From an uncultured delta proteobacterium (GTDB taxonomy: Bacteria > Desulfobacterota > Syntrophia > Syntrophales > Smithellaceae): DNA of 64,000 nucleotides. The notes beneath the pieces are model-generated. The model made no database searches. It was given only the letters and a program-made list of their open reading frames with translations, and was not told where the DNA came from. The translations under genes and the position numbers were made by a program. The stretch's first letter is position 1, and every line of letters begins with the position of its first letter. The stretch covers positions 319,387 through 383,386 of the forward strand of contig CAVQAL010000003.1 of the NCBI GenBank assembly GCA_963710575.1, read 5' to 3'. Shown one piece after another: positions 1 through 14,233 of the stretch.

Positions 1-264
1 AATATCTAAAGTGTCGCCTAGTTTGACTACCGATGCCTGAAACGCCTGCGTTAATTGTTCTCTATCTCCTAAATTACCTTTTATGCCAAAAACTTTAGCT
101 CCAGAGCTGCCGATTTCATTTGCTATTGCATCAATCTGGTCAGTTATGTCGATAATTGCGACCTCAGCGCCTGCTTCGTGTAGTCCTTCGACCAAACCTC
201 TGCCTAACCCGCTGGCACCGCCTGTCACTATTGCTTTCTTTCCAGTCAAATCAAACATATTCAT
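1..264 (-). CDS. Short-chain dehydrogenase/reductase (5' part; runs off the left edge)
   Basis: Manual translation MNMFDLTGKKAIVTGGASGLGRGLVEGL, with TGxxxGxG Rossmann motif; AGGAAGG RBS upstream; not in ORF track because truncated. Confidence 0.85.
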   Translation of the reverse strand, partial: MNMFDLTGKKAIVTGGASGLGRGLVEGLHEAGAEVAIIDITDQIDAIANEIGSSGAKVFGIKGNLGDREQLTQAFQASVVKLGDTLDI

Positions 265-355
265 AACAATCTACCTTCCTTATTTAGATGACCCAATATC
301 TCTAAAAAAAACTTTTCCCTCTTTTCCAACGGATCATGCATTTGCCTGTGCATTT

Positions 356-1486
356 TTATTTGATCATTTCCGTAAAACTTTGAATTCTATTTCTGATTTG
401 TTCCGCCGAATCCATTTTTTGTTCGATTTCCAAATACAGCGTGGGAATCCCGGCAGCTTCAAGTTCCTTCTTGTATATTGGATAGTCAAATTCTTCAGGA
501 TTACAGAACTTCATCATACAAACCACCACCCCGTCGGCATGATTATCCCTGACTAATTCAATTAGCAGTTGTCCATGTTTCTTTTCTTCATCGTATAAGA
601 GGGAGCAGCCGTCATGATCCGCAATCCGGTAGGCCAACCTTTCGAGCGCCGTTCCTTCGCTGCGGGCGCACGTTCTGAACTGTCTTGACTCATGCGCCAG
701 ATCGTCGGCAACAAAAACCATCTTGTTTTCGACAAAAGCATCAAGCAATGCATTCGTTTCTGCAAGAATTCCTGTAATGACCATTTTTATACCATCAAAA
801 TTTTCTGCCGGAAGCTTTTTCAATTCTTCCATGAGTTCTTTAACTTTGGCGGTATAGTGGCTTTTGTCCATGAAATATGCTGCCTTGATAATTAAGTGGC
901 GCGTTTTCGCGTTCAACGTTTTAGGATACTTGCCAACAATTGCCGTAAATTGTCGCATGGTTTTCCGATAGTCTTCGTAAATGGCGATACTGTTTTCCAG
1001 ATCTTGCTCGGTTATTTTTCTGCCGGCGACAGTTTCAAACTCTTTTTTCACCCTTTTATATTCATCGATTAGATAGGCAATCCCGGCAGCAATTTTTCTA
1101 TGTTGCGGGTAAACAATGGGGATCAAATATGTTTTTGGAACGGCAACCTGCCAGTTATCACAGATACATTTTAGGGTATCACAATAAGTCGGAATAACAA
1201 CAGCAGACAAAAAATCATACATCCCTTTCATGCCTTGCTCAACATTGATGCGCATGATGGAACAACAGAAGCTTTGTAAATACTTGTCCGCCTCTTTGAT
1301 CTCAGTCTGCCCTCCCCAAAGGCCGACAGGCAACAGGCCTGCCGCATAGATGATTTCATCAGGCGTATAATAAGGAAAACATCCTACCGCCTTTTTCCCT
1401 GTTTCCTTCATTGACGCCTTTACAGCTTTTGCCGGATGGTTTGCTGTTTCTTGCAAATCAGCTATGATTTCCCCAATACGATTCAT
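356..1486 (-). CDS. 2-hydroxyacyl-CoA dehydratase family subunit (HgdB/FldC/BcrC-like)
   Basis: Motifs YLQSFCCS, PTYCDTLKC, MMKFCNPEEFDYP and C-terminal RIQSFTEM; overlaps partner subunit by 4 bp. Confidence 0.85.
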   Translation of the reverse strand: MNRIGEIIADLQETANHPAKAVKASMKETGKKAVGCFPYYTPDEIIYAAGLLPVGLWGGQTEIKEADKYLQSFCCSIMRINVEQGMKGMYDFLSAVVIPTYCDTLKCICDNWQVAVPKTYLIPIVYPQHRKIAAGIAYLIDEYKRVKKEFETVAGRKITEQDLENSIAIYEDYRKTMRQFTAIVGKYPKTLNAKTRHLIIKAAYFMDKSHYTAKVKELMEELKKLPAENFDGIKMVITGILAETNALLDAFVENKMVFVADDLAHESRQFRTCARSEGTALERLAYRIADHDGCSLLYDEEKKHGQLLIELVRDNHADGVVVCMMKFCNPEEFDYPIYKKELEAAGIPTLYLEIEQKMDSAEQIRNRIQSFTEMIK

Positions 1487-2709
1487 TGTCCACTAGGCCT
1501 TTCTTTTTTTCTTTGTTCCATCATTTCCATAAAAGCTTCTATTCTTGTTTCATATTGCGCCAGGGAAAATGCCCGCGGATCGGTCTGATCCCCGTCGAAA
1601 ATAACGGACGCCGTACCGGTCTGCTTCTGGACTTGACGTTGCACTTCGTATTGTCTGAAATCCATTAACTTGCAGCTTCTGTTCGAATGATAAATAATGC
1701 CGTCTAAAGAAAAATCTTTCACAATCTGTACGATTTTATTGATTCCATAATTCAGGTTCCTGTTTGCATAATTGGCACTGTAGGCTCTGGCCATAGCATC
1801 CAAATCATCATTGTCATATACGATGGTCCAGGAGTCGGGATATGTCGAGGTGACCATATTGATCCCGTTTTTCCTTAATATTTTGGCTGTATCAGACAAA
1901 TGCGGCCAGCAGGCAATGCCGTCCCACATGATGCGGTATTTTTCTTCCTGATCTCTCCAGGGGCCTTCACCGCGGTCAATTTTCCCCTGCAGTTCTTCCG
2001 CCCAGAGCTTGAAGAGGTCCAGCCCTTCCTGTTTCCCCCTCATACACACGATAACCGCCATGTAATTGAATAAATCGAAGCCATTGAAAGGCGAGGGTTT
2101 TGCTACCGCCAGGGCCGTTGCTTTTTTCCACCACTGGGCCGTCTCTGTGGAAATTTTCATAACATCACGGAAACGGTCGCGATCGAATTTTCTGCCGGTA
2201 ATTCCTTCCAATTGACTGATGGCATTTTCGAACTGGCCCCGGATATATTTGACGCTATGCTCCGGGATCTCGTCTGTATGGTTGAAAGGCGTATCAATTA
2301 GAATCATGGGGATACGCATATCCCGGGCAAGGTTCTCGTACCATTTGATGGCGGTGCTGCAAATGTTGCTGCAGCAAAATATAAAATCCGGCATGGGAAT
2401 ATTGCCGGCAACACTTTCTTTAAGCCTAGTATAGCCCATATTGACCCGTGCGTAAGAACATAAATCCGTTGAATAGCCATTGCTTTCGGCATTGTCGAGA
2501 AACGCCTGGGCATCTTTTCTCGCTCCAATAACCGCCGCATGGTTTTCCGGATAAACTACCTTGATGTCCATGGTTTCCAAAAGCTCTTGGGGGGCAATGG
2601 AGGTGGACCAAGCGACAAGTTCGCCCGCCGCTTTGGCTGCAAAGGCATCTTCATAATGACGGGAAAGCAACTCTCCCAACATTTGTTTTGAAGAAATAGT
2701 CGTATCCAT
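1483..2709 (-). CDS. 2-hydroxyacyl-CoA dehydratase family subunit (HgdA/FldB/BcrB-like)
   Basis: YPENHAA, DLCSYARVN, CCSNICST, HSNRSCK, FDGDQTDPR motifs. Confidence 0.85.
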   Translation of the reverse strand: MDTTISSKQMLGELLSRHYEDAFAAKAAGELVAWSTSIAPQELLETMDIKVVYPENHAAVIGARKDAQAFLDNAESNGYSTDLCSYARVNMGYTRLKESVAGNIPMPDFIFCCSNICSTAIKWYENLARDMRIPMILIDTPFNHTDEIPEHSVKYIRGQFENAISQLEGITGRKFDRDRFRDVMKISTETAQWWKKATALAVAKPSPFNGFDLFNYMAVIVCMRGKQEGLDLFKLWAEELQGKIDRGEGPWRDQEEKYRIMWDGIACWPHLSDTAKILRKNGINMVTSTYPDSWTIVYDNDDLDAMARAYSANYANRNLNYGINKIVQIVKDFSLDGIIYHSNRSCKLMDFRQYEVQRQVQKQTGTASVIFDGDQTDPRAFSLAQYETRIEAFMEMMEQRKKERPSGQ

Positions 2710-2714
2710 ATTTT

Positions 2715-3854
2715 TTATTTCAATAGTTCACGTGAAATGATTAATTTCATAATCTGGTTTGTTCCCTCGTAGATCTGGGTAATTTTTGCATCCCTCATCA
2801 TACGTTCAAAGGGATACTCTCTCATATACCCGTAACCGCCGGCAATCTGGAGTGCATCCGTTGTAATTTTCATCGCCGTGTTGGAGGCAACAAGCTTGGA
2901 CGCCGCGGAAAGATAGCTTTTGTTCGGATCATTAGCATCAATCAGCCTTGCTGCCTGATAAACGAGGCTTCTGGCCGCATCGAGTTCTGCGGCCATATCT
3001 GACAGCATCCAACCTATACCCTGGAATTGGCCGATGGGTTTTCCAAACTGAATCCTTTCTTTTGCGTATTTGATTGCAAGTTCCAGGGCGCCACGTGCAA
3101 CACCACAGGCTTGTGCAGCAATAACAGGCCGTGATGTATCGAGGGTCTGCATAGCATATACAAACCCCTTCCCTTCTATGCCAATAAGGTTTTCTTCTGG
3201 TATCTCGACATCCTCAAAAACCAGTTCTCCTGTAGGTGATCCCTTTATGCCCATCTTTTTTTCCCACTTGCCGATTGAAAATCCCGGCGATTTGGTAGGT
3301 ACAATGAAAGCGCTTATTCCTTTGACACCCTTCGATGCATCCGTCATGGCAAATACCGTGATGAGATCGGCTACCGGACCATTGGTAATGAAACATTTTG
3401 TTCCATTGATTATGTATTTATCACCTTTTTTCACCGCTCGTGTCTTCATAGCCCCGGAATCGGACCCGGCACTTGGTTCAGTCAGTCCATAAGAGATGAT
3501 AACATCTCCAGAAGCTACCATCGGACCATACTTTGCCTTCTGTTCCTCGCCGCCTCCAATCAGGATCGGCTCCCATCCCAACGCCTGACCCTGTACAATC
3601 AGTGATGAGCTGACGCAGGCCCTGGCAATCTCTTCCACGGCAAGACACGTAAACATATGTCCTTGATCGGTGCCGCCATATTTTTCCGGAACCGCCAGTC
3701 CGAGAAGCCCCATGTCTGCAAATATCTTTTTCAAATCCCAGGGAAATTCCTCTGTCTCATCGATCTCCGCGGCCCGGGGCACAACTTTATCATCAACCAT
3801 TTTCCGCAGTTGATCTACAAACAATCTCTGGTCTTTATTATCAAGCAAATACAT
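2715..3854 (-). CDS. Acyl-CoA dehydrogenase (butyryl-CoA dehydrogenase-like)
   Basis: GLTEPSAGSD, GTKCFITNG, GGYGYMREYPFERMMRDAKITQIYEGTNQI. Confidence 0.95.
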   Translation of the reverse strand: MYLLDNKDQRLFVDQLRKMVDDKVVPRAAEIDETEEFPWDLKKIFADMGLLGLAVPEKYGGTDQGHMFTCLAVEEIARACVSSSLIVQGQALGWEPILIGGGEEQKAKYGPMVASGDVIISYGLTEPSAGSDSGAMKTRAVKKGDKYIINGTKCFITNGPVADLITVFAMTDASKGVKGISAFIVPTKSPGFSIGKWEKKMGIKGSPTGELVFEDVEIPEENLIGIEGKGFVYAMQTLDTSRPVIAAQACGVARGALELAIKYAKERIQFGKPIGQFQGIGWMLSDMAAELDAARSLVYQAARLIDANDPNKSYLSAASKLVASNTAMKITTDALQIAGGYGYMREYPFERMMRDAKITQIYEGTNQIMKLIISRELLK

Positions 3855-3908
3855 AACCTTTTCTCCTCACTTTTTTAGAATTACAAGTATAATACTACTG
3901 TTTTCTTT

Positions 3909-5360
3909 TTATCCTTTAATCCCGGCAATTTCTTTAGCCAGTTTTTTCTTTTGTTCCAGATTGCCCTGGCGTGAAATCATAATTCGCTGAGCCTGCGGCG
4001 AACCCGCGCCATGCATGGATTCCGTACGATAGCCTACTGCGGCTGTGCCTAAAGTAATATTCTCCACCAATCTTAAAATGCGGCAGCGATTCTCCGTGGA
4101 TACCGAAGCGACTCCTTTAAAATATTTTTCGACTAATTTGCCGATTTCCGGGTGACGTAAATCTTTTTCCGAACCCATTGTGACCATTAATCCACCGGCA
4201 ATATCTTCGGCCAGCCGTGATATTTCATAAGGAAACCTGGTAACGTTCTGTTTGCAGACATTGGCCAGCAATAAATCAATCAGGTAGTTGCCGGAAGCGG
4301 TCTTATGTCCCTGCGCAGAGCAGGCGATGCCACAGGAGTAAAGAGTTTCGTTCAGATGTATCATTTCAATCAGTTTATCTTTGACGTGTGATGCTTTGGA
4401 AGCGCCATTGTAATCGGCAGCCAGAGCAGCCGCGCCAATGAGCACGTCGCCGACGCCGACTTTGCATCCGCCGTAACTCTGGCGATGATATCCGGCAAAG
4501 CGTTCCACCAAAGCGCCGCTAAATTCATATTCGCCGCACATAAGTACGTTTTCCCAGGGAACAAACAAATTATCAAAAACCATAAGAGCCTCATGGCCGC
4601 CGAACTGCCGGTTGCCCACGTCTATTTCACAGCCTTCCAGTTTTCGAGTATCGCAGGATTGCCGGCCATAAATATAGGATATGCCTTCCGCGTCGGCAGG
4701 CGCGACAAAAGAAAGGGCGTAATCGGCATCTTCTTTGGTCATGGCGATAGTCGGCATCACCAGAATCCAGTGGGAATTGATGGCTCCTGTCTGGTGCGCT
4801 TTGGCGCCCCGAACGACAATGCCATCTTTTCTTTTTTCCACGACATGTGTATAGAGATCGGGATCGGCCTGCTTGCTGGGAGACAGGCTGCGATCTCCTT
4901 TGGGATCAGTCATAGCGCCGTCAACGACGAGATCTTCTTCCTGGATCATTTTAAGAAATTTGATAAAACGATCATGATACTTAGTGCCCAGTTTTTCATC
5001 CATTTCGAATGTTACGCTGTCCACGGCATTGATGGCATCCATCCCAACACAGCGCTGAAAACAGGAACCTGTTTTCTGTCCCAGCAGGCGCTGCATTTTT
5101 ACTTTCTTAATCAGGTCTTCAGTACTTTGGTGCAGGTGGCAGAACCGGTTTATTTTTTCCCCTGTCAGATGGGATTTCGCCGTCATCAGATCTTCATGCT
5201 GGGGATCTTGAGCTAAAGCGTAGGTCATTTTTACGGAATTCATGGATGGCCTTATAATAGGATTATCCACCGGGTTTTTAACCAGTTCGCCCAGCAGATA
5301 GACTTTAAAATTCATTTTACGTAGGCTTTCTTCATATTGTTCAGCAGTTTTTAATGCCAT
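3909..5360 (-). CDS. abfD: 4-hydroxybutyryl-CoA dehydratase / vinylacetyl-CoA isomerase
   Basis: SCFQRCVGMDA and GYHRQSYGGCKVG carry the [4Fe-4S] Cys/His ligands of AbfD; C-terminal ESMHGAGSPQAQR. Confidence 0.9.
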   Translation of the reverse strand: MALKTAEQYEESLRKMNFKVYLLGELVKNPVDNPIIRPSMNSVKMTYALAQDPQHEDLMTAKSHLTGEKINRFCHLHQSTEDLIKKVKMQRLLGQKTGSCFQRCVGMDAINAVDSVTFEMDEKLGTKYHDRFIKFLKMIQEEDLVVDGAMTDPKGDRSLSPSKQADPDLYTHVVEKRKDGIVVRGAKAHQTGAINSHWILVMPTIAMTKEDADYALSFVAPADAEGISYIYGRQSCDTRKLEGCEIDVGNRQFGGHEALMVFDNLFVPWENVLMCGEYEFSGALVERFAGYHRQSYGGCKVGVGDVLIGAAALAADYNGASKASHVKDKLIEMIHLNETLYSCGIACSAQGHKTASGNYLIDLLLANVCKQNVTRFPYEISRLAEDIAGGLMVTMGSEKDLRHPEIGKLVEKYFKGVASVSTENRCRILRLVENITLGTAAVGYRTESMHGAGSPQAQRIMISRQGNLEQKKKLAKEIAGIKG

Positions 5361-5378
5361 TCTATTTGTACCTCGACC

Positions 5379-6476
5379 TTATATTTGTTTTCTTTCCATA
5401 CCCTCTTCGTCAGCGATCTTGATCGAAGCAAGAACTAACTCGGGTGTTACAGGCATCAGCTCATTGTGAATGGTTTCTTTCGCGGCACAGGCAATCGAGG
5501 CTGCCTTCTCCAAGTCCTCATCAGACGCACCATCCAGACCGAGCGCAGCCAGTGTCGTGGGTAAATCAACCGACTCGCAAAATGAATACACCTCATCTAT
5601 CACGCTTGCTGGTTTGTCTGTCATGAACAGAGAGGCCAGCACGCCAAAGGCAACTTTCTCCCCATGGTAATATGCATGACCTTTATCGAGGGCATTGAGC
5701 CCGTCCTGTATAGCATGGGCAGCCGCAAGGCCGGCACTCTCAAAACCGATGCCACTCAATAGTGTGTTGGCTTCAACAACATGTTCAAGCGCCGGGATGA
5801 CGACATGTTGTCTGCAAGCCATCTTCGCGGAAAGACCGTATTCCATAAGAGTTTCATAACAAAGACGAGCCAAAGCCTGGGCTGTCATGGAACTATGGGC
5901 CCTCACCATGTTTTTTGCATATTTCATTCTGCACGATTCTGACTCAAACCACGTAGCTAATGCATCCCCCATACCTGCAATCAGGAACCTCTCAGGGGCT
6001 TTTGCAATAATATTCGTATCGACAAGCACGACGTCTGGATTCCGTCGAAGCATGAGCACGCGCTTGATACGTCCTGTATCCGGTCGATAGATGACCGACA
6101 GGGAACTGCAGGGAGCATCAGTCGATGCCACCGTCGGTGCTATAATGACGGGAACGTCCATCTCATGAGCTACTGCTTTCGCTGTATCGAGTGTTTTCCC
6201 TCCACCAATGCCTATTACAACATCGCAGGCCTCCTTGCCTGCTATCGCCATTAATCGTGTAATCTCTTCATCAGAACATTCCCCTGCAAATTTCTCGACC
6301 ACCACTGGAATTACTTCTTTTATTGAAGCATGGATACCGGGTATGACCTTTTCACATACCGAGGGACTACAGATAATGGTGCCTTTCTTTCCATAGCGCG
6401 GTATCAGTTCCTTTAGCTCTTTAATAGCGTCGTAGCCCTGTATGTACTTTCCGGGAAATAATGTAGCTGTGATCAT
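5379..6476 (-). CDS. gldA: Glycerol dehydrogenase-like iron/zinc-containing alcohol dehydrogenase
   Basis: GIGGGKTLDTAK, PTVASTDAPCS, GMGDALATWFE, AAAHAI, HGEKVAFG. Confidence 0.85.
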   Translation of the reverse strand: MITATLFPGKYIQGYDAIKELKELIPRYGKKGTIICSPSVCEKVIPGIHASIKEVIPVVVEKFAGECSDEEITRLMAIAGKEACDVVIGIGGGKTLDTAKAVAHEMDVPVIIAPTVASTDAPCSSLSVIYRPDTGRIKRVLMLRRNPDVVLVDTNIIAKAPERFLIAGMGDALATWFESESCRMKYAKNMVRAHSSMTAQALARLCYETLMEYGLSAKMACRQHVVIPALEHVVEANTLLSGIGFESAGLAAAHAIQDGLNALDKGHAYYHGEKVAFGVLASLFMTDKPASVIDEVYSFCESVDLPTTLAALGLDGASDEDLEKAASIACAAKETIHNELMPVTPELVLASIKIADEEGMERKQI

Positions 6477-7509: not shown

Positions 7510-8199
7510 TTATTTCATAATCAAGCCCAAGAATTCTTTATGAGTCATTGGGTGTGAAAAAGTCGGGAAATTTTCCTTTACAGTAAAATCTTGAACCGCC
7601 TGTGATCCGGCTGCAGTAACGTCAGTCATAGTAAAAACATTGTAACCTTTTTCATAAGCTGTACGCATGGTGGACTCGACGCAGATATTGGTGACAAAAC
7701 CGGCGAGAGCTACGTTCTTGATACCCATCGCCCGCAAAACAAAATCAAGGTTTGTGCTAAAAAAAGCATCAGGAGCGCGCTTGCCTTCGATGATAACATC
7801 ACCCTTAACCGGTGTTAATTCATCGACAATCTTCGTGTTCCACGTATCTTTCTTGAATGCTCCGACAGACTTCACGTATCCACCGACACCATAAGCGTTA
7901 GGTCCCACTTCACAAACATCAGTTGCAAACCAAATGGGTACATGCATGATTGTGATACCCTTTGCGCGCGCCTTTTTAACCAGATCAACGGCATTGGCAA
8001 GAACATTGTTTTTGTCCACCACGGGTTTTAACCATTCATAATTCTTTCCACCGGGCTTGAGCATCTCATTCTGGAATTCGATCAACACGACTGCAGTTTC
8101 ACTGGCTTTTATTTTTTCCACCTTTTCTGCAGCAAATACCGCCGTGGAAAAGAAAAGCAGACACAGACCCATTAACACACACAACATTGTTCTCTTCAT
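7510..8199 (-). CDS. Isochorismatase-family cysteine hydrolase with signal peptide (copy 2)
   Basis: Near-identical paralog of 6635..7321. Confidence 0.85.
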   Translation of the reverse strand: MKRTMLCVLMGLCLLFFSTAVFAAEKVEKIKASETAVVLIEFQNEMLKPGGKNYEWLKPVVDKNNVLANAVDLVKKARAKGITIMHVPIWFATDVCEVGPNAYGVGGYVKSVGAFKKDTWNTKIVDELTPVKGDVIIEGKRAPDAFFSTNLDFVLRAMGIKNVALAGFVTNICVESTMRTAYEKGYNVFTMTDVTAAGSQAVQDFTVKENFPTFSHPMTHKEFLGLIMK

Positions 8200-8271
8200 T
8201 ATTTGTTCCTCCTTGTTTTGATATGAACTTCACTTTTTATTATACGCTGCTGCATATTGATTGCATTAAAA

Positions 8272-8287
8272 AGCAAGACGTATGCCA
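8272..8287 (-). promoter_or_regulatory. sigma54 -24/-12 promoter for the hydrolase-gldA-abfD operon
   Basis: Minus strand TGGCATACGTCTTGCT = GG-N10-GC. Confidence 0.85.
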
Positions 8288-8289
8288 TG

Positions 8290-8498
8290 TTAAAAAAGAT
8301 GCAATATCGATCGATGATATTATAAAGGAATGGTATCTGATATTGTTGAATAGATTGATCTTATTTGATATTGATGCATCGATATTTTGTTCATATTTAC
8401 AATTGGAGAATTGTTATATTAATAAATAGATTGATCAGTTTATGAGCCCTTTTGCTTTTTTTGTATAATTTTTGAGCATTTTCCAGTTTTTCATTATT
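8290..8498. repeat. Duplicate of 10310-10526 (enhancer region plus last ~21 codons of the EBP gene, frameshifted)
   Basis: Near-identical sequence; T7 versus T6 run near 8456 shifts the frame. Confidence 0.9.
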
Positions 8499-8520
8499 TG
8501 CAGGCATGAAAAATAAACAA

Positions 8521-8746: not shown

Positions 8747-8833
8747 AATATTCTTAGTTTTATATGTCTGTGCAAAACTCTCGCATGCAAGATTAATCTG
8801 AATATGTTTTAATAAAAAATAATGTATTCAGAT

Positions 8834-9292
8834 TTAGAAAAAAATCATAGTTAGTGCCTGCGCGATACAAGCCGGTTTTTCTTGTCCCTCTATCTCTATC
8901 GTATGTGTTTGAGTCATCAGTATTCGGTTATCAGGCTTTGGTTCCAATAATGAAAGGACAATGCGGTCGCGGATTTTTGCACCGGAAATAACGGGATTGA
9001 TAAACCGCACTTTATCGAGGCCATAATTGATTAACATCTTTGACCCTTCAAATTTGAGAGGTACCTGGTAGCTGAAAAAGGGCAAATGGGAGAGCGTGAG
9101 AAACCCATGTGCAATGGTTTTGCCGAAAGGTCCTTTAGTCGCTTTTTCCATGTCCACATGAATCCACTGATGATCTTTTGTGCTGTCGGCAAATTGATTA
9201 ATCTGCTCCTGTGTGACCTGTGTCCAGTCCGAAAGAAATATTTCCCACCCAATCAATTTTTCCATATCCTTCAATACTTCTGCTACAGACAT
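8834..9292 (-). CDS. MaoC-like (R)-specific enoyl-CoA hydratase
   Basis: FADSTKDHQWIHVD, TIAHGFLTLS, NYGLDKVRF. Confidence 0.9.
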   Translation of the reverse strand: MSVAEVLKDMEKLIGWEIFLSDWTQVTQEQINQFADSTKDHQWIHVDMEKATKGPFGKTIAHGFLTLSHLPFFSYQVPLKFEGSKMLINYGLDKVRFINPVISGAKIRDRIVLSLLEPKPDNRILMTQTHTIEIEGQEKPACIAQALTMIFF

Positions 9293-9401
9293 GATTGCCT
9301 TTCTCCCTTCTCATTATTATTCCAATACGAACATAGTAACAGGCCGTTGATGAATTCGACGACCTGTTGCTGTTTTTATTGTCGGCTTAAAATACCAGTG
9401 C

Positions 9402-10151
9402 TTAAATTTTCATACCGCCGTCGCAAAATATAATCTGTCCGGTGATAAATGAACTCTCGTCAGAGGCCAGAAAAAGCGCCAGATTGGCAACGTCCAAAGG
9501 CGATCCCTTGCGGTTCAGGGGTACTATGGAAGATAGTGTGGCATCCATTTGCTTAATAAATTCGGGCGGCATATTCTTCATCATATCTGTCCAGATCATA
9601 CCCGGAGCAATGGCATTGACATTAACACCCTTTGGCCCCATTTCCTTGGCAACTGTTTTGGTCATGCCGATAACTCCGGCCTTGGAGGCGGCATAGTTAA
9701 TCTGCCCGACATTGCCTAAAGCACTGGTTGACGAAATGTTGATGATTTTTCCGTAGCCTTTCTCCCGCATAACCCTGCCCGCGCACTGCATCCCGTAAAA
9801 CACGCCGGTCAGATTGACTGCGATAACCTGATCCCACTGCTCATCGGTCATCTTATGCATGATTACGTCACGGGTAATGCCCGCGTTGTTGACAATAATG
9901 TCAACTGTACCAAATTCTTTAATGGCCGTATTAACCATTTTCTGTACCACTTCCCGTGAGGCCACCGAGCCGACAACGGCCACAGCCTTGCCGCCATTGG
10001 CTTTGATCTTTTCCACAACGCTTTTTGCGTCCGCCTCATTAACATCATTCACGATCAATTTTGCACCTTCTTCGGCAAAGCGCAAAACGATGCCTTCGCC
10101 AATACCACGTCCTGATCCTGTTACAATTGCCACTTTGTCTTTCAATCTCAT
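9402..10151 (-). CDS. fabG: 3-oxoacyl-(ACP/CoA) reductase, SDR family
   Basis: TGSGRGIG, NNAGITRD, YAASK, NAIAPG. Confidence 0.85.
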   Translation of the reverse strand: MRLKDKVAIVTGSGRGIGEGIVLRFAEEGAKLIVNDVNEADAKSVVEKIKANGGKAVAVVGSVASREVVQKMVNTAIKEFGTVDIIVNNAGITRDVIMHKMTDEQWDQVIAVNLTGVFYGMQCAGRVMREKGYGKIINISSTSALGNVGQINYAASKAGVIGMTKTVAKEMGPKGVNVNAIAPGMIWTDMMKNMPPEFIKQMDATLSSIVPLNRKGSPLDVANLALFLASDESSFITGQIIFCDGGMKI

Positions 10152-10290
10152 TGGTAAAAATCTCCTTAGAATATTTTAATTATCTATCTTCAATTCCAAA
10201 TTCCGTATAATAATAAATTCCCAAGGCTGATAATTGTCAGCGACTGGATTTAATTTTTTCAATACGCCGCGTAATTCGATTGCGTACATA

Positions 10291-10306
10291 AGCATTACGC
10301 ATGCCA
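10291..10306 (-). promoter_or_regulatory. sigma54 -24/-12 promoter for fabG-maoC
   Basis: Minus strand TGGCATGCGTAATGCT = GG-N10-GC. Confidence 0.8.
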
Positions 10307-10463
10307 AAGTAAAAAAGATGAAATATCGATCCATGATATTATAAAGGAATGGTATCTGATATTGTTGAATAGATTGATTAAATATTGATTTTATTTGTAT
10401 TGATGCATCAATATTTTATTCATATTTACAATTGGAAAATTGTTATATTAACAAATAGATTGA

Positions 10464-12503
10464 TCAGTTTATGAGCCCTTTTGCTTTTTTGTATAATTTT
10501 TGAGCATTTTCCAGTTTTTCATTATTCTGGATTTTTTTATATAATGTATTTCTTGCCATACCTAATTTCTTTGCTGCTCGGGATAAGTTTCCTCCTTCCT
10601 TTTGCAAAACGATATTAATCGCTATATCTTCCGCAGTTTTCATTATGTCAATTTGGTCATCATTATTACTTATTAATTTCTCATGAATATTCTTCACATC
10701 GTTTTCATTATTTTGCTTATTTAAAAAAAATCCTTCCGGCAAATGTTCAACACCAATTCCGCTTTCTATATCAGATATCAATAGGGCTCGTTCAATTATA
10801 TTTTTCAACTCCCTTATGTTTCCCGGCCAAGAATGATTTAATAAAGCCCGATAAAATTCAGGTGTAACATTTAAGCTGCTTAAACCAAACTTTTCCCCAT
10901 AATAATTAAAATAATGTTTTGCCAAAACAGGGATATCTGATTTCATTTGATTTAAGGCAGGTAATTTTAAAGTAACAATGTTAATACGATAATATAGATC
11001 TTCCCGAAAATTGCCCTTATTGATTTCCTGTAATAAATCTTTTTTTGTAGCCGAGATTAAACGAAAATCAGTGGGAATTTCTTCAACTCCCCCAACCCTG
11101 ACAATATGATTGCTCGATAGAGCTCTTAACAATTTTATTTGAACGTTTAAGGGCATGCTTTCAACCTCATCCAAAAAAAGAGTCCCCCCCGAAGCTATCT
11201 CTAACTTACCGAGCTTACCGCCTTTTAGTGCTCCCGTGAAAGAACCAGGTTCATATCCAAATAACTCACTTTCGATGATTTCTGACGAAATTGCGCCACA
11301 ATTAATTGCTACAAAATGTTTGTCCTTTCTTTGACTGGCAGCATGTATCGATTGGGCAAACATTTCTTTGCCTGTTCCACTTTCGCCATAGATAAGCACA
11401 GATGAACCAGACATAGCAATTTTTTTTGCTAGGGATTTTGCTTTTATCAATTCAGGATTATTACCAATGATATCATCAAATTTATATATCGTTTTGGCGC
11501 TATTCAATTTAGAGCCTATTTTTTGTATAATGCTTACATCCGCAAAGAAACATGCTAATCCATTTTTTTCATTAAGAAGGCGTGTTGAAACAAGAAAAGA
11601 TTTGACTTTCTTATTCTCAATTTTAATTTCTATTTCTTCATTATTCATTTCTTGAATATTCTTATTGCCAGTAATTACTTTAAGATATTGATCCAGCTTT
11701 TTAATGATTAAAGGCCTATCACTGCTAGGATCAATTCCAAAATACTGAAGAGCTTTTTGGTTATAACGTTCTATTCTTTTATCAAGCATATTTATATAAA
11801 CTACGCCTTCGGTCATGTAATCCATCATTACACCCAAATTTCCCATCGTAGCGCTTACAGCTAATTCATTTTCTATCGCCTGCCCAATGCTTGTAACCAA
11901 TCCCAATGTTTCACGTGTTTGTTCGGCTATAACACTAGCAATGTTTATAGCGCCAATGATTTCGCCATAGGCATTATGGATAACTGTACATGAACAGTTT
12001 ACGTCATGATGTGGTTCATTATAATGCTCAGCGCCAAGGAGTTGAACAGGCTTATTGTGCATCAAAGCCAAACATACTGCATTTGTACCTGCTGTTTTTT
12101 CCGATCTGTTGCTGCCGACACAAAATCCTATTTCATCATCTTTTGGATTTACATCTTTATCGTCAGTCAACTTTAAGCAATAACCATCCGCATCAAAAAG
12201 TGATATGCGCAAGCCATTGCCGGTAATAATTTCATCCATCATTTTCATATACTTTCCTGACACATTAATAAGTTCGTACGAAGCTTTTTCCCTTTTTGAA
12301 ATCTCTTCTTGATTTGGTAAATCAACATCGATTTTTCCATATTCACTAACTTTATATTGTTTGCTTCTCTGCCAGGATTCATAAACCTCTTTCGAAATTA
12401 TTTCTCTGTCAACTTTTTTATTGTTGACGAACTTTTCCCATTCATTTTTTATTTTAATAGCCTTCTCATTCATTAATTTTTTATATTGATTATCCATATT
12501 CAT
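10464..12503 (-). CDS. sigma54-dependent enhancer-binding protein (AcoR-like, GAF-PAS-AAA+-HTH)
   Basis: GESGTGKE, ESELFGYEPGSFTGA, LFLDEV, FREDLYYR, WPGNIRELKN, Fis HTH; start moved to MNMDNQ by RBS. Confidence 0.92.
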   Translation of the reverse strand: MNMDNQYKKLMNEKAIKIKNEWEKFVNNKKVDREIISKEVYESWQRSKQYKVSEYGKIDVDLPNQEEISKREKASYELINVSGKYMKMMDEIITGNGLRISLFDADGYCLKLTDDKDVNPKDDEIGFCVGSNRSEKTAGTNAVCLALMHNKPVQLLGAEHYNEPHHDVNCSCTVIHNAYGEIIGAINIASVIAEQTRETLGLVTSIGQAIENELAVSATMGNLGVMMDYMTEGVVYINMLDKRIERYNQKALQYFGIDPSSDRPLIIKKLDQYLKVITGNKNIQEMNNEEIEIKIENKKVKSFLVSTRLLNEKNGLACFFADVSIIQKIGSKLNSAKTIYKFDDIIGNNPELIKAKSLAKKIAMSGSSVLIYGESGTGKEMFAQSIHAASQRKDKHFVAINCGAISSEIIESELFGYEPGSFTGALKGGKLGKLEIASGGTLFLDEVESMPLNVQIKLLRALSSNHIVRVGGVEEIPTDFRLISATKKDLLQEINKGNFREDLYYRINIVTLKLPALNQMKSDIPVLAKHYFNYYGEKFGLSSLNVTPEFYRALLNHSWPGNIRELKNIIERALLISDIESGIGVEHLPEGFFLNKQNNENDVKNIHEKLISNNDDQIDIMKTAEDIAINIVLQKEGGNLSRAAKKLGMARNTLYKKIQNNEKLENAQKLYKKAKGLIN

Positions 12504-12626
12504 ATCCCTTTTCCGAGGCAAGATTAATAAATAACAAACGCTCTCGTAAAGTACATTAGAGCGAAAATTCCATAACAATGCAAGCGGAAAAATGCTCAAA
12601 ATTTAAGCAAAATAACAAAAATGCTC

Positions 12627-12644
12627 ATAGATTGATCAATCTAT
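12627..12644. promoter_or_regulatory. 18-bp perfect palindrome, candidate upstream activator site
   Basis: atagattgatcaatctat; partial copies at about 8426 and 10455. Confidence 0.6.
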
Positions 12645-12684
12645 TTGTTAATATAACAATTCTCCAATTGAAAATATGAACAAT

Positions 12685-12702
12685 ATATTGATGCATCAAT
12701 AT
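12685..12702. promoter_or_regulatory. 18-bp perfect palindrome, candidate upstream activator site
   Basis: atattgatgcatcaatat; near copies at about 8368 and 10398. Confidence 0.6.
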
Positions 12703-12792
12703 TTTTTAAGATCAATATTTAATCAATCTATTCAATACTATTGATACTATTCCTTTGGAATATCATCGCTCGATACTTCATCTTTTTTACCA

Positions 12793-12808
12793 TGGCATGC
12801 GTCTTGCT
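12793..12808 (+). promoter_or_regulatory. sigma54 -24/-12 promoter for the porin gene
   Basis: TGGCATGCGTCTTGCT = GG-N10-GC. Confidence 0.85.
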
Positions 12809-12871
12809 CTTTGGTACGATCAATATACTGCAGCGTATAATAGTTCATATCAAAACAAGGAGGAACAAATA

Positions 12872-14233
12872 ATGAAGAGATTTTGGTCAGTAATGCTATC
12901 GCTAGGTTTAGTCCTAGCTTTTAGCGCGTCGGCTATGGCAGTCGATGTAAAAGTTAGCGGCGAATTTTACGTCGGTGGATTGTATTTAGATAAAACTAAT
13001 TTAACGAAAGATGTGGAACCTAACCCGAGTACCGCATTCTATTATCAGAGGTTAAGGGTCGAGACTGATTTTATCGTAGCTCCTGGTCTGAAGCTGGTCA
13101 CCCGCTTTGACACCATGGACAGAATCTGGGGCGGTGCGAGATCTGCACCCGGAACACCTGATTCACAATCTATAGCAACACGGGCTGAAGTTGAAAACAT
13201 CGCTTTCGATTGGGCCTACATTAATTATGACTCACCTATCGGTACATTCATGGTAGGCTATGGGCCCGATAGGTTCTGGGGAACCGCTTTCGGCGATAGC
13301 ATCAACGGCCATGCCACCGGTCAAATAGCCTATTTTAAGCCTGTAGGTGATTTCTTTTTTGGCGCTCTCGTTTACAAAGAAGGTGATAACAGTAAATCTG
13401 CTGTAACTACAGGAACAACAACCACCGATCAAGACGCCGATAAGTACGTTGTATTTGTAGATTATACTGTCAACAAGAACATCAAAACCGGTTTACTTGC
13501 ATGCTACTATCGTGACGCTTCGGGTAGAAACTTCAGCAGTTGGTACAATGGCGTTCTTGGCCCCAATACACCAGCCTATGGCACCATGTCAGCGTACTAT
13601 TTATGGCCTTATTTCAAAGCCAAATTCGGCCCTGTAGCTTTAGAAGGAGAACTCGAATACGCTTGGGGTTCGATTACTTCTGAAACTACCGGTGACCCTA
13701 ATGTGAATGTCCAAGACTTGGATATTTACCTTGCGGCAAATGTCACTTTAGGCATGTATTATTTTGGTGGCCAATTCGCCTATCTCCAGGGCGATGATCC
13801 CAATTCTAAAACACGCTCGGGCGGCATTACCGGTCAAAACGGTGGTACGGATTGGAATCCAACCTTGATTATGTTCAATCAGGATCTTACCTACTATGCG
13901 GGCCCAATTGGTGGCTATGACAATACTGCTAATGCCAGTGTGATGACCAATGCTTGGTTCTTCCAGGGCAAAGTTGGCTTACATCCTATTCCAGCATTGG
14001 ATATCAATGCATCTCTTTCTTTCGCCCAAGCAGATCAGAAACCAGTAGGTGTTCTCAACAGTGCATACGGCTGGGAAGTTGACGTTACCGGTACTTACAA
14101 AATCACCAATAACCTTTCTTATATGCTGGGTGCCGGTTACTGGTTCGTTGGTGACTATTACAAAGGCGATAACAATAACAACCAGCTCAGAGATGAGTAC
14201 ATGCTAATCAACAAGCTTACTTTGACCTTCTAA
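12872..14233 (+). CDS. Outer-membrane beta-barrel porin (deltaproteobacterial type)
   Basis: Signal peptide MKRFWSVMLSLGLVLAFSASAMA, alternating beta-strands, C-terminal ...LTLTF; GGAGG RBS. Confidence 0.8.
   Translation: MKRFWSVMLSLGLVLAFSASAMAVDVKVSGEFYVGGLYLDKTNLTKDVEPNPSTAFYYQRLRVETDFIVAPGLKLVTRFDTMDRIWGGARSAPGTPDSQSIATRAEVENIAFDWAYINYDSPIGTFMVGYGPDRFWGTAFGDSINGHATGQIAYFKPVGDFFFGALVYKEGDNSKSAVTTGTTTTDQDADKYVVFVDYTVNKNIKTGLLACYYRDASGRNFSSWYNGVLGPNTPAYGTMSAYYLWPYFKAKFGPVALEGELEYAWGSITSETTGDPNVNVQDLDIYLAANVTLGMYYFGGQFAYLQGDDPNSKTRSGGITGQNGGTDWNPTLIMFNQDLTYYAGPIGGYDNTANASVMTNAWFFQGKVGLHPIPALDINASLSFAQADQKPVGVLNSAYGWEVDVTGTYKITNNLSYMLGAGYWFVGDYYKGDNNNNQLRDEYMLINKLTLTF

What the first reader, a model, noticed from the sequence alone, without database searches (positions are those of the whole stretch)
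1..14233. Self-contained sigma54 regulon for anaerobic breakdown of an unknown hydroxy-acid/amide substrate
Seen: SDR, HgdAB-like dehydratase pair, acyl-CoA dehydrogenase, AbfD with intact Fe-S ligands, GldA-like dehydrogenase, two exported cysteine hydrolases, MaoC, FabG and a porin, all behind three similar sigma54 promoters flanking one enhancer-binding protein. Established: 2-hydroxyacyl-CoA dehydratases and AbfD are separate radical dehydrations, normally in different fermentations (amino acids versus 4-hydroxybutyrate). Inference: having both, plus a polyol dehydrogenase and a periplasmic hydrolase, suggests a pathway that takes up an amide, ester or lactone, hydrolyses it and removes both 2- and 4-hydroxyls from a C4-C5 acyl-CoA (e.g. 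a 2,4-dihydroxybutyrate-like compound). I know no described pathway with this combination. The ATP-dependent activator and CoA-transferase are not in the window and may lie left of base 1.
Basis: partly seen in the sequence, partly recalled or inferred. Interest (0 to 1): 0.72.

Follow-up and report, generated by a model that had tools for sequence, protein, structure and literature searches.

The report
Mobile sigma-54 hydroxy-acid breakdown gene cluster
A peat-dwelling Smithella carries, next to an integrase and a tRNA gene, a sigma-54-switched gene cluster that is transcribed in wetlands and probably breaks a small hydroxy acid down to acetyl-CoA using two different oxygen-sensitive radical dehydratases; the substrate is unknown, and one essential helper enzyme is encoded elsewhere in the genome.

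Summary
All listed genes are present, and three copies of one ~300-bp module each carry a sigma-54 promoter around a single enhancer-binding protein.

The operon continues left of base 1 with a glutaconate-type CoA-transferase, an MFS acid transporter and a thiolase. It is not self-contained: the ATP-dependent activator of the HadBC-type dehydratase is absent here and in all near-identical copies, although 22 of 23 other orthologous loci have one adjacent. The genome encodes activators elsewhere.

The cluster lies beside a P4-type integrase and tRNA-Ala. HadB orthologues occur in only 6 of 116 family genomes. Near-identical copies occur in peat metagenomes, and wetland metatranscriptomes cover the structural genes.

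The cluster is a mosaic:
- Natural variants lack GldA-AbfD, or lack everything from the porin to AbfD.
- The AbfD copy has recombined with the host's conserved core AbfD.

HadBC plus AbfD recurs in at least three other independent architectures, some next to sugar-acid genes. I slightly favour stepwise removal of a 2-OH and a 4-OH from one small C4 polyhydroxy acid (about 0.4). Two feeders converging on crotonyl-CoA is the main rival (about 0.3). I found no published pathway. This is a new variant of a known kind, of moderate interest.

The parts
1..264 (-). N-terminal part of a KduD/gluconate-5-dehydrogenase-like SDR. The 252-aa gene continues to 494 bases left of the window.
   Evidence: Pfam adh_short. 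Full length gives KduD models at 237 bits. Closest solved structure is 4Z9Y, 2-deoxy-D-gluconate 3-dehydrogenase. SDR orthologues at 46-56% identity recur beside HadBC orthologues and at 47% in L200.
356..1486 (-). HadC-like beta subunit of a 2-hydroxyacyl-CoA dehydratase.
   Evidence: PF06050 at 286 bits. NF052456 HadC at 511 bits, below the cut-off of 700. Colinear with 3O3M_B and the cysteine motifs are kept.
1483..2709 (-). HadB-like alpha subunit of a 2-hydroxyacyl-CoA dehydratase.
   Evidence: PF06050. NF052455 HadB at 541 bits, below the cut-off of 750. 436 bits to 3O3M_A with the cysteine motifs kept. 2525 relatives found; orthologues at 60-97% identity.
2715..3854 (-). Short-chain (butyryl-CoA dehydrogenase / acryloyl-CoA reductase-like) acyl-CoA dehydrogenase.
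   Evidence: All three ACAD domains present. Best NCBIfam hit is AcrC at 467 bits, below the cut-off of 640. Closest structures are short-chain ACADs and the Bcd of the Bcd-Etf complex, 5OL2.
3909..5360 (-). 4-hydroxybutyryl-CoA dehydratase / vinylacetyl-CoA isomerase (AbfD). This is a second copy of the host's conserved core gene.
   Evidence: 782 bits to 1U8V. C100, C104, H292 and C299 present. 94.8% nt identity, confined to the ORF, to C6:198922-200367. Closer to the genome's own core copy than to the AbfD of the sister cluster.
5379..6476 (-). Glycerol-dehydrogenase-family (GldA) polyol/hydroxy-carbonyl dehydrogenase.
   Evidence: NF006941 at 489 bits, above the cut-off of 336. 465 bits to T. 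maritima GldA, 1KQ3. GldA (81%) next to AbfD also occurs in L070 without HadBC.
6635..7321 (-). Iso1, an exported isochorismatase-family cysteine hydrolase.
   Evidence: PF00857. Sec-type leader; E41, K140 and C173. Closest structure is 3KL2, of unknown function.
7510..8199 (-). Iso2, a tandem duplicate of Iso1 (92% aa identity; 93.8% nt identity including flanks).
   Evidence: Relatives above 90% identity occur only in metagenomes. The 50-60% relatives lack the leader.
8191..8498 (-). Promoter/enhancer module copy 1, with a sigma-54 promoter at 8272-8287, 73 nt before the Iso2 start. It carries a relic of the EBP 3' end.
8834..9292 (-). MaoC-type (R)-specific enoyl-CoA hydratase.
   Evidence: PF01575 at 80 bits.
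9402..10151 (-). FabG-type 3-oxoacyl reductase / (R)-3-hydroxyacyl-CoA dehydrogenase.
   Evidence: NF004198 at 304 bits, above the cut-off of 296.
10254..10551 (-). Promoter/enhancer module copy 2, with a sigma-54 promoter at 10291-10306, 140 nt before the FabG start. It overlaps the EBP 3' end.
10464..12503 (-). One-component sigma-54 enhancer-binding protein (GAF/PAS sensor, AAA+ domain, Fis-type HTH). DhaR/AcoR-like and AT-rich (33% GC).
   Evidence: PF00158 at 217 bits and HTH_8. Full-length match to DhaR at 306 bits, below the cut-off. Weak GAF and PAS hits. GC content.
12549..12880 (+). Promoter/enhancer module copy 3 (inverted), with a sigma-54 promoter at 12793-12808, 64 nt before the porin start.
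12872..14233 (+). Outer-membrane porin-like protein with a signal peptide.
   Evidence: Weak match to NF033939. Four paralogues at 46-50% identity in the genome. Shares its 5' UTR and first codons with Iso2. Terminator at 14263-14290.
15537..16775 (-). P4-type tyrosine integrase.
   Evidence: Arm-DNA-bind_3, Phage_int_M and Phage_integrase domains.
16948..17023 (-). tRNA-Ala(CGC), flanking the lineage-specific DNA.
   Evidence: ARAGORN. No second copy of its 3' end on the contig.

Best explanation
This is a horizontally mobile, sigma-54/EBP-switched catabolic cluster of a peat Smithella.

Shown:
- One promoter/enhancer module, present three times, precedes (i) a porin, (ii) FabG-MaoC and (iii) a long operon: Iso2-Iso1-GldA-AbfD-ACAD-HadB-HadC-SDR-GctA/B-type CoA-transferase-MFS-thiolase. 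The last part of that operon lies left of base 1.
- The genes are intact and are transcribed in wetlands.
- The cluster has no activator gene for HadBC.

Inferred flow:
1. A precursor enters through the porin and is hydrolysed in the periplasm by the two cysteine hydrolases.
2. The released small polyhydroxy or oxo C4 acid is imported by the MFS symporter. A 2-keto-3-deoxy-tetronate or 2,4-dihydroxybutyrate type is the working candidate.
3. The KduD-like SDR, and perhaps GldA, set it to the (R)-2-hydroxy form.
4. The glutaconate-type CoA-transferase makes the CoA ester.
5. HadBC removes the 2-OH by ketyl-radical chemistry. It is primed in trans by one of the genome's HgdC-type ATPases.
6. The Bcd-like ACAD reduces the resulting 4-hydroxy-enoyl-CoA.
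7. AbfD removes the 4-OH to give crotonyl-CoA.
8. MaoC, FabG and thiolase convert crotonyl-CoA to two acetyl-CoA.

The GldA-AbfD pair is a later, separable addition, recruited from and still recombining with the Smithella core genome.
For: - Gene identities.
- Three sigma-54 promoters sit inside three repeat modules, and rpoN is present.
- No strong - strand terminator lies between Iso2 and the thiolase.
- Contigs from four wetland metatranscriptomes cover the structural genes through the thiolase but largely skip the EBP gene.
- The same gene order is found in an independent peat assembly, L106/L120.
- HadBC and AbfD sit in one operon in at least three other architectures with non-orthologous transporters, CoA-transferases and beta-oxidation enzymes: L102, L146 and L154/L158. 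Each has only one transporter and one CoA-transferase.
- Sugar-acid-type partners recur around HadB orthologues: a KduD-like SDR in 7 of 23 loci, GldA-like genes in L156 and L174, and a UxaA-type dehydratase in L104, L154, L158 and L174. Such dehydratases make 2-keto-3-deoxy acids, which carry a 4-OH (my own knowledge).
- AbfD is followed directly by an ACAD both here and in L146.
- An Iso + porin-like + SDR + MFS set recurs in L200.
- Island context: integrase next to tRNA-Ala; HadB orthologues in 6 of 116 family genomes; 7-10 kb of other DNA at this site in two relatives.
Against: - No enzyme here has been assayed, and no substrate is identified.
- Twenty-one of 23 HadB-orthologue loci have no AbfD but do have Crt, Hbd and Thl, so the HadBC product usually enters beta-oxidation directly.
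- GldA-AbfD is missing from natural variants of this very cluster: L099, a joint in an RNA contig, and G027.
- GldA-AbfD also occurs without HadBC, in L070.
- None of the 80 closest AbfD loci has HadBC nearby.
- GldA has no necessary role in the proposed route.
- L102 has no obvious enoyl reductase.
- Isochorismatase-family enzymes are known as amidases or vinyl-ether hydrolases. No amide of a C4 hydroxy acid is an obvious peat substrate.
- Trans-activation by a 48%-related activator is assumed, not shown.
- Contig depth is a poor measure of expression.
Confidence: 0.4

Rival explanations
1. Two-feeder hub. HadBC and AbfD act on different substrates: a 2-hydroxy acid such as 2-hydroxybutyrate or 2-oxobutyrate, and 4-hydroxybutyrate or a precursor handled by GldA. 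Both deliver crotonyl-CoA to one shared trunk. In that trunk, MaoC, FabG and thiolase lead to acetyl-CoA, and the ACAD leads to or from butyryl-CoA. Under this reading the co-location is regulatory convenience, not one pathway.
For: - The HadB-orthologue module usually stands with Crt, Hbd and Thl and without AbfD (21 of 23 loci).
- GldA-AbfD is separable: it is absent in L099, in G027 and in an RNA-contig joint, and present alone in L070.
- The AbfD protein is 99% identical to the core copy. AbfD orthologues at 84-97% identity are common in Smithella-like genomes, with no HadBC nearby in the 80 closest loci. By contrast, 110 of 116 family genomes lack a HadB orthologue.
- (R)-2-hydroxybutyryl-CoA is dehydrated to crotonyl-CoA by lactyl-CoA dehydratase (PMC8473912).
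- Convergence of butyrate routes at crotonyl-CoA is established (my own knowledge).
Against: - There is only one transporter and one CoA-transferase in each of the four architectures that combine the two dehydratases.
- The cluster has no 4-hydroxybutyrate dehydrogenase of the usual type, no GABA transaminase and no AbfT.
- UxaA-type sugar-acid dehydratases sit beside the AbfD-containing L154/L158 operons.
Confidence: 0.32
2. Reductive, Stickland-like or acrylate-like branch used as an electron sink. A 2-oxo acid is reduced by the SDR, activated, dehydrated by HadBC, and the enoyl-CoA is reduced by the ACAD with Etf to a saturated acyl-CoA. Its CoA is recycled by the transferase. This would let a syntroph ferment without a partner. 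AbfD and the beta-oxidation genes would be peripheral.
For: - The order SDR-CoAT-HadBC-ACAD mirrors the ldhA-hadA-hadIBC-acdB logic of C. difficile (my own knowledge).
- The best ACAD model is acryloyl-CoA reductase AcrC, and the ACAD resembles the Bcd of Bcd-Etf complexes.
- The CoA-transferase is closest to glutaconate CoA-transferase, 1POI.
Against: - No etf genes lie in the cluster.
- A thiolase, MaoC and FabG under the same promoters point to oxidation to acetyl-CoA.
- The periplasmic hydrolases, porin and dedicated importer suggest use of a carbon source rather than a sink.
Confidence: 0.12
3. There is no single coherent pathway. The region is a recombination-prone mosaic of modules on an island, partly decaying, and the apparent completeness is coincidental.
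For: - At least four structural variants exist among near-identical copies.
- The activator has been lost.
- AbfD is exchanged with the core copy.
- The promoter module has been copied three times together with gene fragments.
- An Iso orthologue at 90% identity sits in an unrelated Mo-hydroxylase cluster, L108.
Against: - All ORFs of the full form are intact.
- The proteins are 92-99% identical between assemblies whose DNA is about 94% identical, which indicates purifying selection.
- The genes are transcribed in several wetlands.
- The three promoters tie the parts to one regulator.
Confidence: 0.08

Closest known systems
(R)-2-hydroxyisocaproyl-CoA dehydratase system of Clostridioides difficile (ldhA-hadA-hadI-hadBC-acdB-etfBA; PDB 3O3M)
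   Same: - Two homologous HGD-D subunits, colinear with HadB and HadC, with the cysteine motifs kept.
- Neighbours are a dehydrogenase, a CoA-transferase and a Bcd-like ACAD.
   Different: - Scores are below the NCBIfam equivalog cut-offs (541 against 750, and 511 against 700), so the substrate is probably different.
- There is no adjacent activator and there are no etf genes.
- The dehydrogenase is a KduD-like SDR, not a D-2-hydroxyacid dehydrogenase.
- The CoA-transferase is the two-subunit Gct type, not the family III HadA type.
- Control is by sigma-54, and the cluster has periplasmic hydrolases and a porin.
[quoted passage not shown]
   Same: - A short-chain 2-hydroxyacyl-CoA is dehydrated to an enoyl-CoA and followed by an AcrC/Bcd-like flavoenzyme. 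AcrC is the best ACAD model.
- This is the chemistry that links a 2-hydroxy C4 acid to crotonyl-CoA (PMC8473912).
   Different: - I did not test sequence relatedness to LcdAB, because no Lcd model or sequence was to hand.
- Here the enoyl-CoA is also linked to MaoC, FabG, thiolase and AbfD.
4-aminobutyrate / 4-hydroxybutyrate fermentation of Clostridium aminobutyricum (AbfH, AbfT, AbfD; PDB 1U8V)
   Same: - AbfD scores 782 bits and is colinear over residues 3-482 with 1U8V, with all four cluster ligands present.
- A group-III alcohol-dehydrogenase-family gene sits directly upstream, as abfH does in that pathway's logic.
   Different: - There is no AbfT-type CoA-transferase and no aminotransferase.
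- The upstream dehydrogenase belongs to the GldA subfamily, not the 4-hydroxybutyrate dehydrogenase type (25 bits to NF058672).
- AbfD shares an operon with a 2-hydroxyacyl-CoA dehydratase.
Hydroxyglutarate pathway of Acidaminococcus fermentans (gctAB-gcdA-hgdCAB)
   Same: - The CoA-transferase alpha subunit is closest to glutaconate CoA-transferase GctA, 1POI (E = 7e-49).
- It is paired with a radical 2-hydroxyacyl-CoA dehydratase.
   Different: - There is no glutaconyl-CoA decarboxylase and no activator.
- The dehydratase is closer to HadBC than to other family models.
E. coli atoDAEB with the sigma-54 activator AtoC (short-chain acid / acetoacetate use)
   Same: - The order of the tail is the same: CoA-transferase alpha, CoA-transferase beta, transporter, thiolase.
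- It is sigma-54 dependent (my own knowledge of ato).
   Different: - The transferase is of the Gct type, with an alpha subunit of 314 aa.
- The regulator is a one-component GAF/PAS EBP, not a two-component response regulator.

Membership tests
2-hydroxyacyl-CoA dehydratase system (HgdAB/HadBC plus activator) | Two homologous HGD-D (PF06050) subunits encoded side by side. | tested here: met
   PF06050 at 286 and 274 bits. The genes overlap by 4 nt.
2-hydroxyacyl-CoA dehydratase system (HgdAB/HadBC plus activator) | Closer to dehydratases than to benzoyl-CoA reductases or double-cubane reductases. | tested here: met
   HadB and HadC models score 541 and 511 bits, against 161-164 bits for BcrB and BcrC and 67-147 bits for the double-cubane model.
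2-hydroxyacyl-CoA dehydratase system (HgdAB/HadBC plus activator) | Cysteine motifs of the [4Fe-4S] clusters are kept. | tested here: met
   Residue-by-residue alignment to 3O3M_A and 3O3M_B keeps the DLC..YAR, CC.NIC, NRSCKLM, GCFP, CDTL.C and CMMKFC motifs. I did not check which cysteines are the ligands against the structure.
2-hydroxyacyl-CoA dehydratase system (HgdAB/HadBC plus activator) | A dedicated ATP-dependent activator (BcrAD_BadFG, HgdC/HadI) encoded with the dehydratase. | tested here: not met
   No PF01869 match lies within C3:299387-336000. Matches occur only at C12, C14, C2 and C3:36806. An activator is adjacent in 22 of 23 other HadB-orthologue loci. The best copy in this genome is only 48% identical to the orthologous type.
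2-hydroxyacyl-CoA dehydratase system (HgdAB/HadBC plus activator) | Equivalog-level identity to a characterised enzyme, which would indicate substrate specificity. | tested here: not met
   Scores are below the curated cut-offs of 750 and 700 bits.
4-hydroxybutyryl-CoA dehydratase / vinylacetyl-CoA isomerase (AbfD) | The [4Fe-4S] ligands Cys-x3-Cys and His-x6-Cys, and high identity to the solved enzyme. | tested here: met
   C100, C104, H292 and C299 present. 782 bits, aligned over residues 3-482, to 1U8V.
4-hydroxybutyryl-CoA dehydratase / vinylacetyl-CoA isomerase (AbfD) | Pathway partners AbfT (4-hydroxybutyrate CoA-transferase) and 4-hydroxybutyrate dehydrogenase. | tested here: not met
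   No AcetylCoA_hydro-family gene lies in the cluster. The neighbouring dehydrogenase is of the GldA type.
Sigma-54-dependent regulon | -24/-12 promoter elements (GG-N10-GC) upstream of the transcription units. | tested here: met
   TGGCAT-N5-TTGCT occurs twice and TGGCAT-N5-ATGCT once, at equivalent places in the three repeats.
Sigma-54-dependent regulon | An EBP with a Sigma54_activat AAA+ domain and an HTH, and rpoN in the genome. | tested here: met
   PF00158 at 217 bits and HTH_8. An RpoN box, ARRTVAKYR, is encoded on C15.
Sigma-54-dependent regulon | The EBP binds upstream sites and transcription depends on it. | not testable with these tools
   Conserved palindromes such as ATTGATGCATCAAT occur in all three modules. 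That is only suggestive.
tRNA-associated integrative genomic island | A tyrosine integrase next to the 3' end of a tRNA gene. | tested here: met
   Integrase at 15537-16775 and tRNA-Ala at 16948-17023.
tRNA-associated integrative genomic island | A direct repeat of the tRNA 3' end marking the far boundary. | tested here: not met
   No second copy exists on contig C3. The ancestral neighbour gene of the tRNA now lies on contig C9, so the site has been rearranged.
tRNA-associated integrative genomic island | Patchy distribution among relatives. | tested here: met
   HadB orthologues occur in 6 of 116 family genomes, and in 2 of the same-genus genomes listed. Two relatives hold 7-10 kb of different DNA at this site.
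Isochorismatase-like cysteine hydrolase | Catalytic Asp-Lys-Cys triad. | tested here: inconclusive
   Lys140 and Cys173 align with those of RutB, but Glu41 replaces the Asp. The same Glu is present in the closest structure, 3KL2.

The most novel reading that the evidence does not exclude
The cluster encodes an undescribed anaerobic route that strips both the 2- and the 4-hydroxyl from one small sugar-derived C4 acid as its CoA ester. The candidate substrate is of the 2-keto-3-deoxy-tetronate or 2,4-dihydroxybutyrate type. It would use the two known ketyl-radical dehydratase systems in series, with the ACAD between them. A variant would use AbfD's isomerase activity plus GldA, passing through 4-oxobutyryl-CoA. 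The route would be fed by periplasmic cysteine hydrolases acting on a still unknown peat-derived amide, ester or lactone. It would give syntrophic Smithella in peatlands a fermentable substrate.
Probability: 0.3. Interest if true: 0.75.

Novelty: new variant of a known kind. Interest (0 to 1): 0.5.

Why it matters
Smithella are key syntrophic propionate and alkane degraders in methanogenic peat. A transcribed, mobile cluster for a hydroxy acid would widen their known diet, and with it the carbon flow that feeds methane production.

The repeated joining of the two radical dehydratase systems with sugar-acid genes across unrelated anaerobes points to a fermentation route for small polyhydroxy acids that I could not find described. 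The enzymes are ordinary enough that the idea can be tested directly with CoA-ester assays.

The locus is also a clear example of how an operon is assembled in nature:
- a promoter module is triplicated,
- a core gene is recruited and then homogenised by recombination,
- an essential helper gene is lost and outsourced to the host.

Tried and rejected
- **Benzoyl-CoA reductase or double-cubane reductase for the HGD-D pair.** Rejected on model scores.
Rejected. There is no PF01869 match within 20 kb to the left or 17 kb to the right.
- **AbfD as a diverged paralogue with a new function.** Rejected. It scores 782 bits to 1U8V, has all the ligands, and is 99% identical in protein sequence to the core copy.
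- **AbfD as a simple recent duplication.** Rejected in favour of recombination or gene conversion. Each cluster copy matches the core copy of its own lineage better than it matches the other cluster copy.
- **Defining the island by an att repeat.** No repeat was found. Comparison with relatives shows rearrangement rather than a clean insertion.
- **L105 as evidence that module 1 is separate from module 2.** Left open. It may be an assembly chimera across the repeated AbfD gene, and its AbfD is frameshifted.
- **Logan contigs for structural variants.** The pieces are too short to settle arrangements.
- **Literature searches.** I searched for Smithella with AbfD, for the two dehydratases together, and for 2,4-dihydroxybutyrate with a CoA-transferase. 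None gave a description of such a pathway.
- **Cross-activation of dehydratases by foreign activators.** The one paper I read did not state it, so it rests on my memory only.
- **3-hydroxybutyrate/acetoacetate (ato-like) use as the main function.** Considered because of the order SDR-CoAT-CoAT-transporter-thiolase. Ranked low because the transferase is of the Gct type and is tied to HadBC in close relatives L124 and L126.

Full report
**Where the window lies**

The window is C3:319387-383386 of a 3.05-Mb, 19-contig genome with about 43.5% GC. The closest AbfD relatives, at 84-97% identity, are nearly all Smithella, Smithellaceae or Syntrophaceae MAGs from bogs, fens and peat. DNA about 94% identical to the cluster is held by many peat and permafrost metagenomes.

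**Check of the observation**

- The HGD-D pair is of the 2-hydroxyacyl-CoA dehydratase type. HadB and HadC models score 541 and 511 bits, against about 160 bits for benzoyl-CoA reductase models. The pair is colinear with the C. difficile HadBC structure and keeps its cysteine motifs.
- The AbfD gene is a true 4-hydroxybutyryl-CoA dehydratase: 782 bits to 1U8V, with C100, C104, H292 and C299.
- The ACAD is of the short-chain Bcd/AcrC type.
- GldA passes the glycerol-dehydrogenase subfamily cut-off.
- The two isochorismatase-family genes are a tandem duplicate with Sec-type leaders and a Glu-Lys-Cys set in place of Asp-Lys-Cys.
- The porin assignment is weak. It rests on a 66-bit match to a Desulfovibrio-type porin model and on a signal peptide.
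- Three sigma-54 promoter matches lie at equivalent positions in three ~300-bp repeats. They sit 73, 140 and 64 nt before the starts of Iso2, FabG and the porin.
- The repeats also carry conserved palindromes and a relic of the 3' end of the EBP gene. The Iso2 and porin copies share the 5' UTR and the first codons, so the regulon was built by copying one module.
- rpoN is present in the genome.

**True extent of the unit**

The left flank continues the operon with the rest of the SDR, a two-subunit CoA-transferase, an anion-type MFS transporter and a thiolase.
- The alpha subunit of the transferase is closest to glutaconate CoA-transferase, 1POI.
- The best model for the MFS transporter is the D-galactonate transporter family.
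- No convincing - strand terminator lies between Iso2 and the thiolase. Terminator-like structures follow the thiolase, and a strong terminator follows the porin.
- Beyond the thiolase lie unknown ORFs, a Fic protein and a TOTE-type defence system.
- To the right lie a P4-type integrase and tRNA-Ala.

**Not self-contained**

The ATP-dependent activator that every enzyme of this family needs (PMC8473912) is not in the cluster or its flanks.
- The genome has activator genes at four other loci. The best is on C12, beside another dehydratase pair.
- That C12 copy is only 48% identical to the activator type that accompanies HadB orthologues elsewhere.
- Of 23 metagenomic loci with a HadB orthologue (60-90% identity) and at least 4 kb on both sides, 22 have the activator adjacent.
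- All near-identical copies of this cluster lack it.
- Function therefore requires trans-activation, which is an inference.

**Distribution and mobility**

- HadB orthologues occur in 6 of 116 genomes of the family and in 2 of the listed same-genus genomes.
- In two good assemblies of the genus, the tRNA-Ala site holds 7-10 kb of other DNA and no integrase. The gene that neighbours the tRNA there lies on another contig in this genome.
- No att repeat was found.
- The region is thus lineage-specific DNA at a rearranged tRNA site. It is not a cleanly bounded island.

**A mosaic in flux**

- An independent peat contig (L106, the same record as L120) has the full order MaoC-Iso-Iso-GldA-AbfD-ACAD-HadBC-SDR-CoAT.
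- L099 lacks GldA and the first two-thirds of AbfD.
- One wetland RNA contig joins 3931 to 6595, which skips exactly GldA-AbfD. This is weak evidence, with only 40 nt on one side.
- G027, of the same genus, together with L140, has a truncated porin gene fused to the ACAD upstream region. G027 contains no DNA for GldA through the EBP.
- L105 joins porin-EBP-FabG-MaoC-Iso-Iso-GldA-AbfD to the context of the core AbfD locus. That may be a real recombinant or a chimera across the repeated gene.
- The AbfD gene has its own history. The window copy is 94.7% identical in DNA to this genome's core copy (C6:198922-200367) but only 89.6% identical to the AbfD of the sister cluster L106. That L106 copy is in turn 99.6% identical to a core copy from a bog MAG.
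- The flanking genes are about 94% identical between the two clusters.
- The cluster copy and the core copy therefore recombine within each lineage.
- The core copy in this assembly carries two 1-nt deletions. I could not check them against reads.
- The thiolase also has a core paralogue at 92% identity, which lies beside a 66% AbfD paralogue.

**Expression**

Contigs from four wetland or peat metatranscriptomes, at 90-99% identity, cover the operon from Iso2 through GldA, AbfD, ACAD, HadBC, SDR, CoA-transferase and MFS to most of the thiolase. They also cover FabG, MaoC and the porin.
- In three of the first four runs laid, the EBP gene is almost uncovered. That argues against mere DNA carry-over.
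- This shows transcription in situ. It does not show induction by any particular compound.

**What the relatives say about function**

- The closest HadBC relatives outside the island lineage (80-86%, Smithellaceae) stand as transporter (TRAP), CoA-transferase, HadBC, activator. The transferase is either of the Gct type or of the AbfT family.
- More distant orthologues (60-75%; Anaerolineae, Clostridia, bioreactor and gut metagenomes) are usually joined to a thiolase (19 of 23), Hbd (16), crotonase (16) and an AbfT-family transferase (19). They are often joined to a PAS-type sigma-54 EBP, a Bcd-like ACAD (10) and a KduD-like SDR (7).
- The product of this dehydratase group therefore normally enters short-chain beta-oxidation or butyrate metabolism.
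- AbfD shares the operon in L102 (HadB 79%, AbfD 81%), in L154/L158 (64%, 70%) and in L146 (65%, 68%). These differ in transporter, transferase and beta-oxidation enzymes, and each has only one transporter and one transferase.
- UxaA-type sugar-acid dehydratase genes lie beside L104, L154, L158 and L174. GldA-like genes occur in L156 and L174.
- By contrast, none of the 80 closest AbfD loci has HadBC nearby. One of them, L070, has GldA-AbfD with an aldehyde:ferredoxin oxidoreductase, an aldolase and an MBL hydrolase.
- The exported hydrolase recurs at 62% identity with an SLH-domain protein that may be porin-like (not tested), an SDR (47%), an MFS (43%) and a 2-oxoacid:ferredoxin oxidoreductase in L200. 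It recurs at 90% identity beside a molybdenum hydroxylase in L108.

**Reading**

The well-supported part is this. A sigma-54-switched cluster, acquired by this lineage, is transcribed in situ. By inference from its gene content, it takes up a small carboxylic acid, activates it by CoA transfer and dehydrates it radically. Again by inference, it then leads through crotonyl-CoA-type intermediates to acetyl-CoA by (R)-specific beta-oxidation.

Whether the two radical dehydratases work in series on one 2,4-dioxygenated C4 acid or in parallel on two acids cannot be decided by sequence.
- For the serial route: a single transporter and a single transferase in every combined architecture; the recurrent sugar-acid genes, whose products carry a 4-OH; the AbfD-ACAD adjacency; and the lack of any 4-hydroxybutyrate-forming enzyme.
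- For the parallel route: most HadBC modules lack AbfD, and GldA-AbfD is a separable pair whose AbfD is interchangeable with the host's core enzyme.
- I put the serial route at about 0.4 and the hub at about 0.3. The substrate of the periplasmic hydrolases is unknown in either case.

**Comparison with what is known, and novelty**

Each part belongs to a known family. The HadBC-CoA-transferase-ACAD core, the AbfD step and sigma-54 control of short-chain acid use all have precedents.

What departs from the known systems:
- the two radical dehydratases are joined in one regulon,
- the activator is outsourced,
- a periplasmic hydrolase and porin form the front end,
- the host is a syntroph.

My searches found no paper describing the combination.

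Earlier notes of this scan on other genomes report the same combination. They reached both the serial and the parallel readings. I treat them as leads, not as support.

Noticed in passing
G000 contig C6:198922-200367 (locus L118 8922-10367): The core-genome AbfD copy is 99% identical in protein sequence to the window copy over the aligned part. In this assembly it has two 1-nt deletions, one of them in an A5 run, which break the frame after about 88 codons. This is either a pseudogene made redundant by the island copy or an assembly error.
   Followed up: partly
G000 contig C6:50000-61000 (locus L119): A core cluster holds Hbd (79% to the L102 type), a crotonase-like gene, a 621-aa ACAD-like gene, an AbfD paralogue (66%) and a thiolase that is 92% identical to the island thiolase. 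The genome has five AbfD-family genes in all.
   Followed up: partly
L001 5474-9695 (window -14526 to -10305): A TOTE conflict-system AEP primase-helicase ORF is followed by a ResIII/PLD ORF. The two overlap and may be one split gene. A DUF4172-Fic protein lies in the same lineage-specific stretch as the catabolic cluster.
   Followed up: no
window 8150-8560, 10160-10600 and 12500-12900: Each promoter module contains a relic of the last ~20 codons of the EBP gene. The Iso2 and porin copies share an identical RBS and first codons, so whole promoter-plus-gene-start units were copied.
   Followed up: partly
window 10464-12503: The EBP gene has about 33% GC against about 43.5% for the genome and 47-48% for the HadBC-AbfD stretch. 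This suggests a different origin from the enzymes it controls.
   Followed up: no
L108 (ENA ERZ27247850 k141_393288) 4421-11160: An exported hydrolase 90% identical to Iso1 and Iso2 sits in an unrelated cluster with a xanthine-dehydrogenase-type molybdenum hydroxylase and a Liv-type ABC transporter. The hydrolase gene therefore moves between catabolic contexts.
   Followed up: partly
L070 (CAIVDK010000319.1) 3897-11452: The order is UPF0261, MBL hydrolase, class II aldolase, ferredoxin, aldehyde:ferredoxin oxidoreductase, GldA (81%), AbfD (85%), behind a Liv-type ABC transporter. This is a second, HadBC-free context for the GldA-AbfD pair.
   Followed up: partly
L001 14683-14730 (window -5317 to -5270): A 48-nt near-perfect palindrome lies about 330 nt downstream of the thiolase stop, next to a terminator-like hairpin.
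   Followed up: no
L001 about 1395-1510: A ~100-nt element is repeated on many contigs of this genome and of same-genus genomes at 85-95% identity. It looks like a REP/MITE-like repeat.
   Followed up: no
G000 contig C9:33143-34165: The 341-aa gene that neighbours tRNA-Ala in two same-genus genomes lies on another contig here. The tRNA-Ala site has therefore been rearranged, not merely used for an insertion.
   Followed up: partly
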